Of a stretch of 64,000 bases of DNA, positions 36,001 to 51,000 are shown piece after piece. A program made the position numbers. The number at the start of each line of letters is the position of its first letter. The first letter of the stretch is position 1. Source of the DNA: an uncultured Chlamydiae bacterium. GTDB taxonomy: Bacteria > Chlamydiota > Chlamydiia > Chlamydiales > SM23-39. The stretch spans positions 1,472,001 through 1,536,000 of the forward strand of contig CAWHDP010000002.1 in the NCBI GenBank assembly GCA_963828125.1. The letters are read 5' to 3'.

Positions 36001-39000
36001 CCTGGCCAACGCCCTTTTCGCCCTCACCCATACCCTCGAAGATCATTACACAGGACGGAAAACTTTCTTCAAAAACACAAATGGCGCGCAAATCGCCGAC
36101 CTCGATTTGCTCGCAGGCCGCCGGCTGATTCCCCCGAAAAAGTCACCTCCCCCAAAACCCTGCCCCATCTGGAGCGTTTGGGGAGGCCCTTTTGGCGCCT
36201 TGATTTACCAAGACGCAAAGAAGGCCATACCAGCCTTCAGCGATGAAATAGCGGGTGTAATTGCGGCTGCCGAGTACAATGGGATCAAAAACGTCGCAAT
36301 CGGCGGCGGTCTCGCCTACGCTTTCACGTTCGTCAATTACAAAGAGAGCGTCGGCCACGCCTCGATCAACCAAGAATATGCCCTCATCTACGCCAATTTC
36401 AATCGCCCCTATTTCTTTTTCAATGCGGCTCTCTGGGGCGGCCTCTATCAACTCAGCAATAAGCGGCATACCCTCGGCTTCATCACCTCCACTTCAAACC
36501 CTAAGGGTTGGCTCTTATCGCCCCACGTAGAGTTGAGTACGCCTTTTCTTGTCAAAGGAGACTGGTTTGGCGTCGATCCATTTGCCATGGTCGATTGGGC
36601 CAATAGCTGGCAAGATTCGTTCCGCGAAAAAGGGAGATCGGGACTCAACATCTCCCTCAATAGCCAATACTCCTCCCTCCTCCGCAGCGAAATAGGCGTC
36701 CGCTTCTATGAAACCCTCAAATATGGCTGGGGTTGTCTCAAAATCGAGGAAAAAGCAAGCTACGTCAATAAAGCGCCTTTCCACACAGATCCAGGAACAG
36801 CCGCTTTCATAGGCGCCTTTTCTTCATTTGGCGTTGAGACCTTTAGTAGCTCCGTCCAAAATTTGGGTTTAGCGCAAATCGCATTCCACTTCACCCCTTC
36901 CCATCCGAAGTATCCCTATGGCTCAATCGACTATCAGGGCGAGTTCGGCTCTTCCTTTCAATCGCACCTTCTCGTGTTAGAGCTCGGACAATCTTTTTAA
37001 CTCGAATTTTAAATATACTGCGGCCACCCCAAAAATGTGAATTTGGGGTGGCCGCAGTGTAGCCAAAGCCAAAAAGAGGCAAAAAAAAAGCCCGCCTGTT
37101 ACACTTGGCGCCTGTATGGATGGAAAACCGAAAGAAGGTTCAGTGGAGTCGCTCGTCGATGCTTTGCGTCTCCTCCTGATGGGAAGGAAAGCCAGCACTC
37201 AAGAGGCGATCTGTTCCGCCTTGGAAAAATTGGGATACGAAATCAACCAAACTAAGGTCTCTAGATTGCTCCGCAAGATCGGCGCGATCAAGATCGAAAA
37301 CGAACACGGGCAAACAGTCTATTCGCTCCCTCGCGAACCCGCTCCCCCCTCAATGAATACTCAAATTAGAGATTTGATCGTCAATATAGTGGCCAATGAG
37401 GCTTTAGTCGTTATTTTCACAAGCCCCGGATCTGCCTCAATGGTCGCGCGGGTTCTCGATTACAACCAGATCACCACCGAAATTCTCGGAACCATTGCTG
37501 GAGACGACACGATCTTTGTCGCCCCCAAAACAATCAAAGATATCCGAAAATTAACGGAAGAAATCAAGGGCTTACTCCAAAAATAGCGTTTCCTCAACTG
37601 TAGACAGCAGCTTCTCCTTCTCTATCAGCCAAGCAGCGACTTTTTCAGCTTTGATCGCATGCAAAGCAAACTGCCTATTGACCTGATTAGACGAGGTGCC
37701 CCCTTGGCTATCCCTTGTATTGACAATCCTTCTCAAATCGAGCATGGCCGCCACATCTTCAGCAAAAAGGGGAGAAAAATCTTGCAGTTCTCGCAAAGAG
37801 AGTTCTTCCAGTTTCCGATCGCTATCCAAACAATATCGGACAACCTTCCCCACAATCGCGTGCGCCTCCCTAAATGGAACGCCTTTCAAAGAGAGATAAT
37901 CGGCAAGTTCAGTAGCATTTAAAAGCCCCTCCTGAGTGGCCTGGAGCATTTTATCCGGCCGGACATGAAGGGTTTCTATCACTCCCCGGTAAATGCAGAG
38001 CGATGATTCAAGAGTCTTTACAGTATCAAAAAGGGGCTCTTTGTCTTCTTGCATATCTTTATTGTAGGCAAGAGGAAGCCCCTTCAGCAGGGTCAAAGTG
38101 GAGAATAGAGAACCATACACTCTTCCTGTCTTCCCTCTGACAAGTTCGGGTACGTCGGGATTTTTCTTCTGCGGCATAATACTGCTCCCAGTACAATAAG
38201 CGTCGTCCAGTTCGATAAAAGCAAACTCTTGACTGCACCAGAGGATCATCTCTTCGCTCAGGCGAGAAAGATGAGCCATGATCAGCGCCCCATGCGCTAG
38301 AAACTCGACGCAAAAATCGCGGTCGCTCACTGCATCGATACTATTTTCATAAAGAGAGTCAAATTTGAGAAGATCGGCCACCAGCCCTCGATCGATCGGC
38401 AGCCCTGTCCCCGCCAACGCACAAGCTCCAAGGGGCAGTTGATTGATGCGAGGCCAGCTCCCGATCAAACGATCCATATCCCGCCCCAAGCTCGCCGCAT
38501 AAGCCAATAGATGGTGGGCAAAAAGGATCGGTTGGGCCCGCTGAAGATGGGTGTATCCAGGCATCATCACATCGATGTTCTCCTTGGCTTTTTGCACCAG
38601 CGCTTCGGATAAGCCTTGCAAGAGAGAGACGACCCTTACGACTTTAGCCCTTAAATAAAGATGGAGATCCAATGCGACCTGATCGTTCCGGCTTCTCGCC
38701 GTATGCACTTTCCCAGCCAAAGGGCCGATGAGCGCCTTCAGCTCCTGCTCTATCTTCATATGGATATCTTCATCTGCCGCTGCAAAGGAGACGGCCCCTT
38801 GAGAAAGACGGTCTCTGATTTCGATGAGCCCTTTTTTGATTTTTTGGGCCTCTTCAAGGGTCAAAATCCCAACAGCTCCCAGCATTTGCACATGGGCCAC
38901 CCCCCCCAGAATGTCCAGACTGGCCAGTTCGCAATCAAAAAAGATCGAAGCGGTAAACGCCTCGACCTGAGACTGTGTCGCTTTCGTGAATCTTCCGTCC

Positions 39001-48000: not shown

Positions 48001-51000
48001 GGTTGGGAATACAGCCCGTTCTGGTTCATGGAGGCGGACCGGAAATATCAAAGATGTGTCAACAAATGGGGATCGTTCCCGCTTTTGTCAATGGGCTGCG
48101 GGTTACGGATAGAGAAACCCTTGAAATCGCGCAAATGGTGCTTGTCGGAAAAATCAATAAAGAACTTGTCTCCCTACTCAACCAAGAAGAAGGGAGGGCA
48201 GTCGGTCTCTCCGGACAAGACGCCAACTTGATCTTGGCCAAACAAGCGGATAAGAACCTTGGATTCGTAGGAGAAATTGAGCAGGTGAACCCCGAGATTC
48301 TCATCCTGCTCATTGAAGCGGGATTCATCCCCGTGATTGCCCCAATGGCAACGTCCAAAAGATCTCAAAGCTACAATATCAATGCCGATAGCGCGGCGAG
48401 CGAGATCGGAGCCGCTCTTCAAGCAGATTCTCTCATTCTGCTCACCGATGTAGAAGGAGTTTTGAAAGACCCTAAAGACCCCAGCACAAAGATCGATATA
48501 ATAAAAACCTCTGAATGGGGCGCCGTAGTCGAAAGCGGCAGCTTGAAAGGGGGAATGATCCCCAAAATAGAGGGGGCCTTAGCCGCGATTCAGAGAGGTG
48601 TGAATCAGGTGCATATTTTGGATGGAAGGGTTCCGAACGTCCTTCTCCTCCATTTTCAGGATCGGGAAACAAAAGGGACAAGCATCTATGTTTAAATCCA
48701 AAACCGAAGAAATTGTGGCGCTCGACAAAAAGTATCTCATGAACACGTACAACCGATATCCGATCGCGATCGTGAAGGGGGATGGAATGGAGGTTTATGA
48801 CGCCGATGGGAAAAAATATCTCGATTTTCTTGGAGGAATTGCCGTAAACGTTTTAGGTCACTGCCACCCCAAAGTAGTCGATGCGATTATTGCGCAAGTC
48901 AAAGAATTGATTCATACATCGAATCTCTACTACACAAAGCCCGCTGCGGAATTGGCCGAATTACTCTCTTTAAACGGAGGGTTGGATAAAATCTTTTTCT
49001 GCAATTCAGGAGCCGAGGCCAATGAAGGCGCCATCAAACTGAGCCGCAAATACCAATGGAGAAAAGGGCGCCGGGAAAAATATAAAATCATTACAGCAAC
49101 CCATTCTTTTCACGGACGGACCCTCGCAGCTCTTGCAGCGACCCATAAACCCGAAATTCAAGAGGGTTTCGGTCCATTGCCCGATGGATTTCAAGCGGTC
49201 CCTTGGAACGACACTCAAAAATTCCTCGAGAGTATCGATGAGACAACCGCAGCCGTTTTAATCGAACCCATTCAAGGAGAAGGAGGGATCCACTCTGCCA
49301 CACGAGACTTTTTAGAAAAAATTCGGGCCGCATGCGATCGGGTAGGAGCCCTTCTGATCTTTGATGAAATTCAATGCGGCATGGGCCGCTCGGGAACCCT
49401 CTTTGCTTATGAAAATTTTGCCGTTAAGCCTGACGTCATTACTTTGGCTAAAGGGATTGCCAGCGGACTTCCCCTGGGCGCTATTTGCGCAACGAATGGA
49501 GCCGCTGAAGCGTTTCATCCAGGAGATCACGGGACGACATTCGGCGCAAATCCGGTCGCCGCGGCGGCCGCTCTAGCCACTTTAAAAGTTCTCATTGAAG
49601 AGAACTACCTTCCAAAGGTGGCTAAAATGGGCGCTCTTCTCATGGAAAAACTCCACGAACTCCAAATAAAATATCCGCAAGCCATCGCCGAAGTTCGGGG
49701 GCTCGGACTCATGATCGGGATAGAGCTCAAAATAGATCCGAAAATAGTGCTGCAAAAATGCCACGCTAGAGGGCTCCTTGCCAATGTGACAGCAGGAAAC
49801 GTCCTCCGCCTTCTTCCCGCCTACACAATTACTGCAAAAGAGATCGGCCAGGCCGTTTCCATTATCGAAAGCGCTATTGTTGGATAACCCCTTAAGGAGC
49901 ATTCGGATACAGAACATAGATAATTTGCTGAACCTGTTCCGGGGCTACAATAATCGTCTGAAGCTGCAATCCCTGCGGTTGGTACTGAATTTGCAGTAAA
50001 CTATTGTTTACCGAAATGCTGAGGACGTTTTTGAGCAGCCCGTTTGTGATGGGCGGAGAAAAGGGGCCGTTTAGCGTCGTCTGAATCCAAACTTGGCTCA
50101 GCCCAGACTGGAATGTTTTTGAGCTAAGCGACGTCACCGCCGACACAATATCGACTGCCCGTTGTTTGGGATCCACTGAATAAAACGGGATCGTCCCACT
50201 CGGATAAGTCGAAGTAAAAGGGGCCGTTGAGGAGGGGAGATTATATTTTTGCGGAAAATAGAGAAATGCGATCACATCTTCGACTGGCAATACGAGATAC
50301 TGGGTGATCGTTTGGGACTGCGGAGGAAGATAGGAGATGATTAAAAGGGTGTTGTAGGGCGTCTCATTGATCGCTTGAATGTAAGGGATGATTCCATTGA
50401 TCAAATATCTATAAGAAGCGTAGGGCAAGGTCGCCAACTTGGTCTGCAGAGCCACTTCAGGGACTTGAATGCCGGAGGCGTGGACAAGCGTATTGAACGT
50501 ATTGTAAATTTCCGTCCCCCGATTCGCTGAGTCAATGGGAAATACAACCGGCTGGCCTGTCAGAGCCATCACGACAACAGCGCTTGAGGCGGCCGAAAAT
50601 AGAGGAATACGCAAAAGCAAAAGGAGCCAACGGCAAATCATGACGGAGATGGTACATTAAAAATTATTTATATTGCAATATCCAGCGAGGAACTCTGCCA
50701 CTTCTTGAAAGGGTTTGGTCCAAAGCCCCAATTCTTTCAGCAAAGCGATAAAAGCCCCGATCTCTTCTTCAAAAAGACGGAGAGCCTCCTCTCTGCCTAA
50801 AACAGCCGCAATGTTGACAGAGGTCGGATCTGCCGCAAAGTCCAGTAGATCGTCAGCGATTTGAAAGGCCATCCCCAAATGGAGAGCGCAAGCCTTAACT
50901 AAAGAAAGCTTTGCAGGATCCCCGCCGCCAAAGAGCCAACCAAAGACGAACGAAATCTCAAACAGGGTGACTGTTTTTTGATAGATGATTTTTTTGATCG

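What a model noticed while it worked through the whole genome (the two positions that open the first line are those of the whole stretch)
37116..49887. Arginine-synthesis island with a carbamoyl-phosphate synthetase / ornithine carbamoyltransferase fusion protein
A 12.8-kb block holds argR, argH, argG, carB-argF, carA, argC, argJ, argB and argD. That is the whole route from glutamate to arginine, which most chlamydiae lack. There is no separate ornithine carbamoyltransferase gene. Instead g01868 (1326 aa) is a full CarB (residues 1-1021) joined in frame to a complete OTCase (1029-1320, with motifs SMG and HCMP). Carbamoyl phosphate could therefore pass directly from its synthetase into the arginine pathway. 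The same fusion exists, unremarked, in Legionella/Tatlockia and in many metagenome proteins, and the island looks laterally acquired.
Evidence so far: pfam.tsv shows two sets of CPSase_L domains, then OTCace_N (1029-1166, E 7e-43) and OTCace (1172-1320, E 2e-48), on one protein. Swiss-Prot CarB of Vibrio is 59% identical over residues 1-960. A search with residues 1000-1326, among proteins of 729-2321 aa, gave 69 hits. About 45 of them are proteins of 1250-1372 aa with both CPSase and OTCace families, 53-65% identical to the query; some are named from Legionella, Tatlockia or Legionellales. The joint has no homopolymer run and aligns in frame with six such fused proteins. relatives.tsv: ArgJ in 4, ASL_C2 in 7 and Arginosuc_synth in 20 of 559 Chlamydiales. 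In the nearest chlamydial carB homologues (G315 and G108; 70-74% identity) the OTCase [...]
(Added by a program. Inside this text positions count along the whole contig: contig position 1,472,001 is position 1 of the stretch shown here. "Call 12" and the like, gene names such as g00115 and contig names such as C1 are that model's own, and its searches are not shown. The text may have been shortened before it was handed on; [...] marks where a part breaks off. The agent that wrote the report below was given it as the finding of a first reader that could run no searches.)

Follow-up and report, generated by a model that had tools for sequence, protein, structure and literature searches.

The report
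Carbamoyl-phosphate synthetase fused to ornithine carbamoyltransferase
In this soil bacterium, a short deletion has welded the enzyme that makes carbamoyl phosphate to the arginine-pathway enzyme that uses it, repeating a fusion that arose separately in Legionella relatives and that I found described in no paper.

Summary
Window 37116-49887 carries argR, argH, argG, carB-argF, carA, argC, argJ, argB and argD. ORF 40218-44198(-) is one 1326-aa frame that passes NCBI's curated cut-offs for both CarB and ornithine carbamoyltransferase (OTCase).

The fusion is not an assembly error. Contigs built independently from three runs of one study bridge the joint with no differences. Compared with relatives whose carB and argF overlap in different frames, G000 lacks 23 or 13 nt, including the carB stop and argF start.

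It is not the same event as the Legionellales fusion. The nearest CarB (89%) and OTCase (84%) homologues are unfused. Both trees nest this protein among unfused sequences, and an AU test rejects grouping it with the clade holding the other fusions (p 0.0028).

The genome has no other carbamoyltransferase domain, and no pyrF or carbamate kinase was found. Carbamoyl phosphate therefore has one visible consumer.

Arginine-repressor boxes overlap both divergent promoters. The CarB allosteric domain keeps its fold but is short and divergent. The tether is predicted to be flexible.

Enzyme activity and channelling are inferred, not shown. Five literature searches found no description of this architecture. 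Verdict: a real, recent, independent gene fusion; a new variant of a known kind (CAD-like).

The parts
37116..37586 (+). argR, the arginine repressor; it converges on argH
   Evidence: Arg_repressor and Arg_repressor_C Pfam families
37572..39029 (-). argH, argininosuccinate lyase
   Evidence: Lyase_1 and ASL_C2
39007..40221 (-). argG, argininosuccinate synthase; its ATG overlaps the stop of carB-argF by 4 nt
   Evidence: Arginosuc_synth and Arginosuc_syn_C; coordinates
40218..44198 (-). carB-argF, one 1326-aa frame: CPS large subunit fused to OTCase
41457..44198 (-). CarB synthetase part (residues 1-914): two ATP-grasp units and the oligomerisation domain
   Evidence: Aligns to E. coli CarB residues 1-948 up to query residue 927; Pfam
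41151..41456 (-). Compact allosteric domain (residues 915-1016) with an MGS-like fold
   Evidence: No PF02142 hit. Model pLDDT 91.5. Best fold matches are CPS allosteric/MGS domains, TMq 0.69-0.76
41124..41153 (-). Predicted flexible tether (residues 1016-1025, [10 protein letters not shown]). It is the old CarB C-terminal tail
   Evidence: pLDDT below 50 at model residues 116-125
41115..41129 (-). The joint: 15 nt where relatives have 38 nt (G335) or 28 nt (G131) holding the carB stop and argF start
   Evidence: Bridged without differences by contigs of runs X1, X2 and X3
40221..41114 (-). OTCase domain (residues 1029-1326)
   Evidence: TIGR00658 and NF001986 above cut-off. Best solved relatives are anabolic OTCases. 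Fold TMt 0.91-0.94
41145..41157 (-). In-frame GGAG, 6 nt, GTG (V1018): a possible internal start for a free OTCase. Untested
   Evidence: sequence
44182..45282 (-). carA, the glutaminase subunit; it overlaps the carB start by 17 nt
   Evidence: TIGR01368 455.9 bits against a 307 cut-off; Pfam
45290..45469 (-). 59-aa decayed copy of the carA 5' end, with a strong ribosome-binding site. It is the first ORF of the leftward transcript
45496..45524 (-). Promoter-like site for the carA operon (TTGAAT-17-TATAAT). Its -35 hexamer overlaps the perfect ARG box at 45510-45523
45594..45623 (+). Promoter-like site for argCJBD (TTGACT-18-TATAAT). Its -35 hexamer overlaps the one-mismatch ARG box at 45595-45608
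45644..46696 (+). argC
   Evidence: Semialdhyde_dh families
46678..47907 (+). argJ
   Evidence: ArgJ, E 1.7e-150
47850..48695 (+). argB
   Evidence: AA_kinase
48622..49887 (+). argD
   Evidence: Aminotran_3

Best explanation
carB-argF is a genuine, recently formed gene fusion. An in-frame deletion across the overlapping carB stop and argF start of an arginine gene cluster joined the CPS large subunit to a complete anabolic OTCase.

Proposed mechanism (inferred):
- CarA supplies ammonia from glutamine.
- The CarB part makes carbamoyl phosphate.
- The OTCase, tethered about 12 residues behind a compact allosteric domain, converts it with ornithine from ArgCJBD into citrulline.
- ArgG and ArgH finish arginine.
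- The OTCase trimer would gather three CarA-CarB units, as the ATCase trimer does in CAD.

Carbamoyl phosphate has no other visible consumer in this genome, so the enzyme is dedicated to arginine. Control is probably transcriptional, with ArgR acting at two ARG boxes over the divergent promoters, rather than through UMP/IMP allostery.

Shown here: the frame, the joint, domain integrity, genome context, phylogeny and the operator-like sites.

Inferred: both activities, the oligomer, any channelling, and the regulation.
For: Frame and families.

The joint is real.
- G335 and G131 have separate carB and argF genes that overlap by 7 and 20 nt in different frames.
- G000 has 15 nt where they have 38 and 28 nt. 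It lacks both the stop and the start, and the length differences (23 and 13 nt) are exactly what brings the two frames together.
- Logan contigs of runs X1 (18,194 nt), X2 (41078-41347) and X3 (41046-41228) cross 41115-41129 with 0 differences and 0 gaps. Two X2 contigs of that call end in adapter-like letters (my recalled reading: Nextera), a hint of short-read data.

Integrity.
- P0001 departs at 1 of 82 OTCase columns invariant among 49 unfused relatives.
- It departs at 4 of 356 CarB columns invariant among 23 unfused relatives.
- Both figures lie within the leave-one-out range of the unfused proteins.
- The OTCase model matches solved anabolic OTCases, TMt 0.91-0.94.

Dedicated use.
- One OTCace domain and one CarB in the genome.
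- No OMP decarboxylase, no dihydroorotate dehydrogenase above cut-off, no carbamate kinase above cut-off, no arginine deiminase.
- Four full TLC nucleotide transporters.

Regulation.
- The only perfect TGAATWWWWATTCA in 2.37 Mb, and one of the eight one-mismatch sites, lie in the 174-bp carA/argC spacer.
- Each overlaps the -35 hexamer of one of the two best promoter-like sites of the region.
- The same palindrome lies just upstream of OTCase genes in other loci.

Viability of the architecture.
- 44 fused proteins elsewhere.
- 14 of 203 Legionellales genomes carry it.
- One fused protein, P0025, has a joint of the same length as P0001.
Against: - No expression or activity data. No RNA run was listed for this DNA.
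- It is the only fused form in its subclade: about 49 unfused OTCases of at least 64% identity, and 24 unfused CarBs. It could be too young for selection to have judged it.
- X1 may be the source sample, and X2 and X3 are from the same study, so they probably sample one population. Contigs also drop rare variants.
- An in-frame GGAG-6nt-GTG at V1018 could yield a free OTCase as well.
- The tether is predicted disordered. That fits proximity more than a sealed tunnel.
- The ARG-box consensus and the OTCase motif names are recalled, not taken from a tool.
Confidence: 0.8

Rival explanations
1. The fusion is an assembly or sequencing artefact: an indel error merged two adjacent genes.
For: Relatives have adjacent, overlapping carB and argF in different frames, so one frame shift could in principle merge them.
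Against: - The difference from relatives is 23 or 13 nt, not 1-2 nt, and it removes both the stop and the start codon.
- There is no homopolymer at the joint.
- Contigs assembled independently from three runs agree base for base across it.
- No ATG, GTG or TTG lies in the argF frame between the CarB-homologous SLNQ and KHL.
Confidence: 0.03
2. The fusion is real but is a recent neutral or harmful accident. One or both activities are impaired, and the pathway is on its way to decay.
For: - It is a singleton among unfused close relatives.
- The same island carries a second lineage-specific oddity, the decayed carA 5' copy.
- Terminal branches of P0001 are about three times those of its nearest neighbours (0.20 against 0.064; 0.11 against 0.035).
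Against: - All nine genes are open.
- There is no excess of changes at invariant columns in either half.
- This is the only OTCase and the only CPS found in the genome.
- The same architecture, with a joint of the same length in P0025, is kept across a diverse Legionellales clade.
Confidence: 0.12
3. The fusion was inherited or transferred from the Legionellales fused family, and the chlamydial-type relatives split it later.
For: - In both trees the fused Legionellales proteins and the chlamydial-type proteins are each other's closest groups. The CarB clade of 42 rows has SH-aLRT 99; the OTCase clade has support 100/100.
- Both groups lack a Pfam MGS hit.
Against: - P0001 sits inside starred clades made only of unfused proteins: 5 rows (98/97) and 15 rows (99/93); 3, 21 and 25 rows.
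- None of 200 bootstrap trees has the fused proteins as one group.
- The AU test of P0001 together with the clade holding all other fusions gives p 0.0028. That group was named after the tree was seen.
- Its nearest CarB is 89% identical and unfused, against 53-60% for the fused proteins.
Confidence: 0.05

Closest known systems
CAD / URA2, the CPSase-ATCase-DHOase multienzyme of animals and fungi
   Same: The carbamoyl-phosphate synthetase is covalently joined to the transcarbamoylase that consumes its product, within a pathway-dedicated CPS. Partial channelling is discussed for CAD (review PMC6022934, passages seen).
   Different: Here the partner is OTCase (arginine), not ATCase (pyrimidines). 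There is no dihydroorotase. The glutaminase stays a separate subunit (carA). The host is bacterial, and the tether is only about 12 residues.
Legionellales CarB-OTCase proteins, which sources name 'carbamoyl-phosphate synthase large subunit' (Legionella massiliensis, Tatlockia sp. and others)
   Same: - The domain order is the same.
- The CarB and OTCase clades are sisters to those of P0001.
- No Pfam MGS hit.
- The role looks arginine-dedicated: 5 of 5 genomes checked also have a canonical CarB.
   Different: - The origin is separate.
- Identity is 53-60% in CarB and 56-65% in OTCase.
- The joint is mostly 6-25 residues longer.
- In G000 the fused enzyme is the only CPS.
Chlamydial-type carA-carB-argF-argG-argH clusters with separate genes (G335, G131; P0073 with P0342-like proteins)
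   Same: The gene order is the same (G131 also has the divergent argCJBD), with 55-79% identity across the island. CarB is up to 89% and OTCase up to 84% identical.
   Different: There carB and argF are two genes that overlap by 7 or 20 nt. G000 has lost the stop and the start.
Non-covalent carbamoyl-phosphate channelling pairs: Pyrococcus carbamate kinase-like CPS with OTCase, and mitochondrial CPS1 with OTC
   Same: The presumed purpose is the same: hand a labile intermediate to OTCase (PMC6022934, passages seen; PMC7860981, abstract only).
   Different: Those are separate proteins that associate. Here there is one polypeptide.
E. coli CarAB
   Same: The PDB alignment covers E. coli CarB residues 1-948, up to query residue 927; canonical proteobacterial CarBs are 60-62% identical to residues 1-925. 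Both have a separate CarA.
   Different: The E. coli enzyme serves two pathways and has a roughly 135-residue allosteric domain (UMP, IMP and ornithine regulation is recalled). Here that domain has about 100 residues, 19-22% identity to solved ones, and is followed by OTCase.

Membership tests
Carbamoyl-phosphate synthase large subunit (CarB) | Score above the curated family cut-offs | tested here: met
   NF003671: 1446.9 bits against 599. TIGR01369: 1331.2 against 1027
Carbamoyl-phosphate synthase large subunit (CarB) | Two ATP-grasp synthetase units plus the oligomerisation domain | tested here: met
   CPSase_L_D1 and D2 each matched twice; D3 at residues 414-482
Carbamoyl-phosphate synthase large subunit (CarB) | C-terminal MGS-like allosteric domain | tested here: inconclusive
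   No PF02142 hit, and phmmer stops at residue 927. However, the model of residues 915-1016 matches CPS allosteric/MGS domains with TMq 0.69-0.76. Effector-binding residues were not examined
Carbamoyl-phosphate synthase large subunit (CarB) | Partner glutaminase subunit encoded alongside | tested here: met
   carA lies immediately upstream; TIGR01368 455.9 bits against 307
Ornithine carbamoyltransferase (anabolic OTCase) | Score above the curated cut-offs, and below those of sister transcarbamoylases | tested here: met
   TIGR00658: 314.3 against 280.85. NF001986: 347.4 against 306. ATCase 141.7 against 263; acetylornithine type 135 against 288; putrescine type 212.7 against 500
Ornithine carbamoyltransferase (anabolic OTCase) | Carbamoyl-phosphate and ornithine motifs SxRTR, HPxQ, DxxxSMG, HCxP (motif list recalled) | tested here: met
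   SLRTR, HPCQ, DVWTSMG and HCMP are in the translation, and their key residues are invariant across 18 clade members
Ornithine carbamoyltransferase (anabolic OTCase) | OTCase fold | tested here: met
   Foldseek against solved OTCases: TMt 0.91-0.94, rmsd 1.5-2.2 A
Ornithine carbamoyltransferase (anabolic OTCase) | Homotrimer with shared active sites | not tested
   No oligomer was modelled
Legionellales CarB-OTCase fusion lineage (membership by descent) | Groups with the other fused proteins in trees of both halves | tested here: not met
   P0001 is nested among unfused proteins; AU p 0.0028
CAD-like multienzyme | CPSase fused to ATCase and DHOase | tested here: not met
   The partner scores as OTCase, and there is no dihydroorotase domain. 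It resembles CAD only in the logic of the fusion
ArgR regulon | ARG-box palindromes at the promoters, and a repressor gene present (consensus recalled) | tested here: met
   One perfect and one one-mismatch box overlap the two -35 hexamers; argR lies in the island. Binding itself was not tested

The most novel reading that the evidence does not exclude
Bacteria associated with amoebae have evolved, at least twice and independently, an arginine-pathway counterpart of CAD: a carbamoyl-phosphate synthetase covalently tied to OTCase. It sequesters or channels carbamoyl phosphate. In G000 the event is caught near its birth, a 13-23 nt deletion between two translationally coupled genes. In Legionellales the same OTCase clade is also found fused to argininosuccinate lyase. 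This points to repeated selection for keeping arginine intermediates in enzyme-bound form in these lineages.
Probability: 0.35. Interest if true: 0.75.

Novelty: new variant of a known kind. Interest (0 to 1): 0.6.

Why it matters
Carbamoyl phosphate is labile. How cells pass it to OTCase has been argued from kinetics and weak complexes (review PMC6022934, passages seen).

A natural single-chain CPS-OTCase would give a defined object for structural and kinetic tests of channelling. Two independent origins would argue that the arrangement is selected.

The case also shows, base by base, how overlapping, translationally coupled genes become one gene.

For annotation, these proteins are named after one half only, so pathway reconstructions can wrongly report OTCase as missing.

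For the organism, it marks a rare member of its order that appears to make arginine from glutamate while importing nucleotides.

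Tried and rejected
- **Complex prediction**, CarB 553-1015 against OTCase 1029-1326: no verdict, score 0.00. This says nothing either way.
- **RNA evidence**: no RNA holder was listed.
- **AU test on the full 110-row OTCase set**, with all fused rows held together: not finished in time, and badly posed, because ArgH-OTCase and unfused rows interleave in the Legionellales clade. I replaced it with a 60-row set and a cleaner grouping.
It returned no chlamydial and no fused locus. It did yield Legionella loci, which I used as handles.
- **The search for related loci in metagenome contigs**: the nearest hit was 70% identical, so I could not see the joint DNA of the 84-89% relatives.
- **The listing of cluster members**: it gave no organism names.
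- **carA fragment as a relic of a native pyrimidine-type carA**: rejected. It is 39% identical over 33 aa to a congener's CarA, against 46% over 50 aa to its own carA, and it has no counterpart in 40 relatives beyond weak hits to ordinary carA genes.
- **Frames of 1367 and 1387 aa in G044 and G344**: the G044 one is a separate carB and a 298-aa transcarbamoylase-family gene divided by a stop. G344 was not examined.
- **Base composition** does not set the island apart: GC 0.48-0.51 against 0.36-0.53 across the window.
- **Literature**: five searches and passages of two papers gave no description of a CPS-OTCase fusion. Subscription journals are not covered.

Full report
**What is there.** The window holds, at the stated coordinates, argR (+), then argH, argG, a 1326-aa ORF and carA on the minus strand, and argC, argJ, argB and argD on the plus strand, divergent from carA. 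The 1326-aa ORF (40218-44198, P0001) carries both halves of a CPS large subunit and then OTCace_N and OTCace. It passes NCBIfam's curated cut-offs for CarB and for OTCase, and fails those for ATCase, acetylornithine carbamoyltransferase and putrescine carbamoyltransferase. Its best solved relatives are E. coli CarB and anabolic OTCases. The motifs I recall as diagnostic of OTCase (SxRTR, HPxQ, DxxxSMG, HCxP) are present, and their key residues are invariant in an 18-member alignment.

**Is the fusion an artefact?** No.
- In an order-wide sample of 400 scored genomes, only G000 has the fused frame.
- Two genomes of other families, G335 and G131, have a 68%-identical argF directly after carB. 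The two genes overlap by 7 and 20 nt in different frames.
- Between the conserved SLNQ codons of CarB and the KH codons that open the OTCase, G000 has 15 nt. G335 has 38 nt and G131 has 28 nt.
- The missing 23 or 13 nt hold the carB stop, the argF ribosome-binding site and the argF start. Their length is exactly what puts the two frames in register.
- There is no homopolymer at the joint.
- Logan contigs built from three runs of one soil-metagenome study cross the joint with no difference and no gap: X1 (18,194 nt; possibly the source sample), X2 (41078-41347) and X3 (41046-41228). Two X2 contigs end in adapter-like letters (recalled as Nextera), which hints at short-read data.
- These runs probably sample one population, and contigs hide rare variants. 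The result excludes a read-level or assembly error, not a polymorphism.

**Whose fusion is it?**
- The architecture exists elsewhere. 44 other proteins of 1258-1372 aa have both parts, some named by their sources from Legionella, Tatlockia or Legionellales.
- In the order around a Legionella genome, 14 of 203 scored genomes carry it: 10 full-length frames and 4 shorter ones that I take to be cut by contig ends.
- These fused proteins are only 53-60% (CarB) and 56-65% (OTCase) identical to P0001.
- The nearest CarBs are 24 unfused proteins of about 950-1067 aa, 64-89% identical. None has a precomputed Pfam MGS hit. Canonical proteobacterial CarBs follow at 60-62%, all with that hit.
- The nearest OTCases are unfused proteins of about 300 aa, up to 84% identical.
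- In a careful OTCase tree of 60 rows (chosen from the 110 rows), P0001 lies in starred clades of 5 and 15 rows that otherwise hold only unfused proteins. The other 17 fused rows lie in a separate 29-row clade. None of 200 bootstrap trees unites the fused rows.
- Forcing P0001 together with that clade costs 38.7 log-likelihood units, AU p 0.0028. I named the group after seeing the tree.
- The quick CarB tree has 59 rows: P0001, the 24 unfused MGS-less CarBs, 17 of the 44 fused, 10 canonical and 7 from chlamydial loci. It shows a fused clade (SH-aLRT 100) sister to a clade of the 24 unfused plus P0001 (99). Together (99) they are sister to a clade of the canonical CarBs plus G032.
- The fusion in G000 is therefore a second, recent event inside a lineage of arginine-cluster CPS genes whose sister lineage fused long ago.

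**Is the fused protein intact?**
- At columns invariant among 49 unfused OTCases, P0001 departs once in 82 (L to I).
- At columns invariant among 23 unfused CarBs, it departs 4 times in 356.
- Leave-one-out values for the unfused proteins run 0-2 and up to 26. There is no sign of relaxed constraint.
- A model of residues 901-1326 (pLDDT 91) gives a standard OTCase fold and a confident four-unit alpha/beta domain before it.
- Residues 1016-1025, the former CarB tail, fall below pLDDT 50. The tether is thus predicted to be flexible.
- Folded alone, residues 915-1016 (pLDDT 91.5) match the allosteric MGS-like domains of human CPS1 and E. coli CPS best, with TMq 0.69-0.76 and 19-22% identity. The allosteric domain is kept as a fold, but it is about 30 residues shorter and unrecognisable to Pfam. 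I did not examine effector-binding residues.

**Context.**
- G000 (2.37 Mb, 95% complete) has one OTCace-family domain and one CarB.
- It has no OMP decarboxylase, no dihydroorotate dehydrogenase or carbamate kinase above cut-off, and no arginine deiminase.
- It has four full-length TLC nucleotide transporters.
- Eleven of its 13 congeners have instead a 42-46%-identical CarB. In G006 that CarB sits with pyrB, pyrI, pyrC, a pyrD-like gene and pyrE.
- In G000, then, carbamoyl phosphate has one visible fate.
- By contrast, 5 of 5 Legionellales genomes with the fusion also keep a canonical CarB. There the fused enzyme is a second, arginine-side CPS.
- ArgJ occurs in 2 of 400 genomes of the order, G000 and G131.
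- The island is syntenic with G131 (argDBJC divergent from carA-carB-argF-argG-argH) and with G335 (carA to argH, then argR) at 55-79% identity.
- In four congeners only the two genes right of the island are conserved, and nothing else within 10-20 kb matches the window. Transposase genes lie 9 kb to the left and 3 kb to the right.
- This fits acquisition or rearrangement, but it shows neither donor nor direction.

**Regulation.**
- The 174-bp spacer between the carA-side ORF and argC holds the only perfect match in the genome to the ARG-box core as I recall it (TGAATWWWWATTCA, 45510-45523). It also holds one of the eight one-mismatch sites (45595-45608).
- Each overlaps the -35 hexamer of one of the two best promoter-like sites in the 13.9 kb scanned. 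Promoter-like sites overall are no more frequent than chance there.
- The same palindrome stands twice just upstream of a 70%-identical argF in a metagenome contig. In four other fetched loci, one exact site each stands 55-92 nt before the OTCase match.
- The leftward transcript would begin with a 59-aa ORF. This ORF is a decayed copy of the carA 5' end, has the best ribosome-binding site of the island, and stops 8 nt before the carA ATG. Its role is unexplained.

**How it most likely works.** See Best explanation. The steps shown are sequence-level. Catalysis, trimer formation, channelling and repression are inferred from what is established for CarAB, OTCase, CAD and ArgR. An in-frame GGAG-6nt-GTG at V1018 leaves open that some free OTCase is also made.

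**Novelty.** Five full-text searches found no paper describing a CPS-OTCase fusion. Of the 21 passages on fusion and channelling in the 2018 carbamoyl-phosphate review PMC6022934, the 12 that were shown list CAD, glutaminase-synthetase fusions and non-covalent complexes only. The library lacks most subscription journals, so 'not in print' is provisional. The fused Legionella proteins are already in public databases under the name of one half. I rate the finding a new variant of a known kind, with interest 0.6. It is real and evolutionarily neat, and it would serve as an experimental model, but it is a recombination of textbook domains and no function has been measured.

Noticed in passing
proteins P0018, P0033, P0035, P0038, P0042, P0047, P0057, P0059, P0060; loci L146 and L148: The same OTCase clade also occurs as ArgH-OTCase fusions of 730-756 aa (one named from Legionella sp.). 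Eight of 203 Legionellales genomes have such frames, and I verified two. In the OTCase tree they interleave with CarB-OTCase proteins; for example, P0042 is sister to P0037 with support 100/100. The OTCase seems to have changed its fusion partner repeatedly.
   Followed up: partly
window 45290-45469 (-): A 59-aa decayed copy of the carA N-terminus (46% identical to carA residues 11-60). It has a strong ribosome-binding site and ends 8 nt before carA. It was not found in the relatives searched. Either a leader ORF or a recombination scar; unexplained.
   Followed up: partly
proteins P0061-P0072: Other OTCase fusions in public data, judged from precomputed Pfam lists only: with a Clp_N domain (P0061, P0063-P0066, P0068), with argininosuccinate synthase (P0067, P0072), with ArgR and ArgD domains (P0070), and a eukaryotic ArgB/ArgC-like protein with OTCase (P0069).
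   Followed up: no
loci L055, L059, L079, L119: Bdellovibrionota genomes (Bacteriovoracaceae, Bdellovibrio) carry unfused OTCases of this clade (54-58% identical). In L055, L059 and L079 they sit in arg clusters with argR; in L119, cut by a contig end, only argR is seen beside the OTCase. The clade therefore spans predatory as well as amoeba-associated bacteria.
   Followed up: no
window 26648-27928 (+) and 52905-54005 (+): A Mutator-family transposase and an IS110-family transposase flank the wider region. Between them lie an LRR protein, a Schlafen/AlbA_2 protein, an autotransporter and two APH-like kinases. GC drops to 0.36 at 28-31 kb. It looks like a variable region of the genome.
   Followed up: partly
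window 41612-42110: A 499-nt contig from a run labelled marine metagenome, from a different study (X4), matches carB with no differences. The other holders are soil runs of one study. It does not reach the joint. Unexplained.
   Followed up: no
G273:C33 (locus L052, 8130-11289): In this relative the arginine-type carB is split into two frames (residues 1-827 and 825-1025), so it looks broken. No arg genes were seen within 6-8 kb of carAB there or in G352 (argF sought genome-wide, none at E 1e-20).
   Followed up: no
protein P0352 (identical to the G335 ArgF): Its NCBI source label is 'Verrucomicrobia bacterium', yet the genome is placed in the same order as G000 by the collection used here. 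This is a taxonomic label conflict in public records.
   Followed up: no
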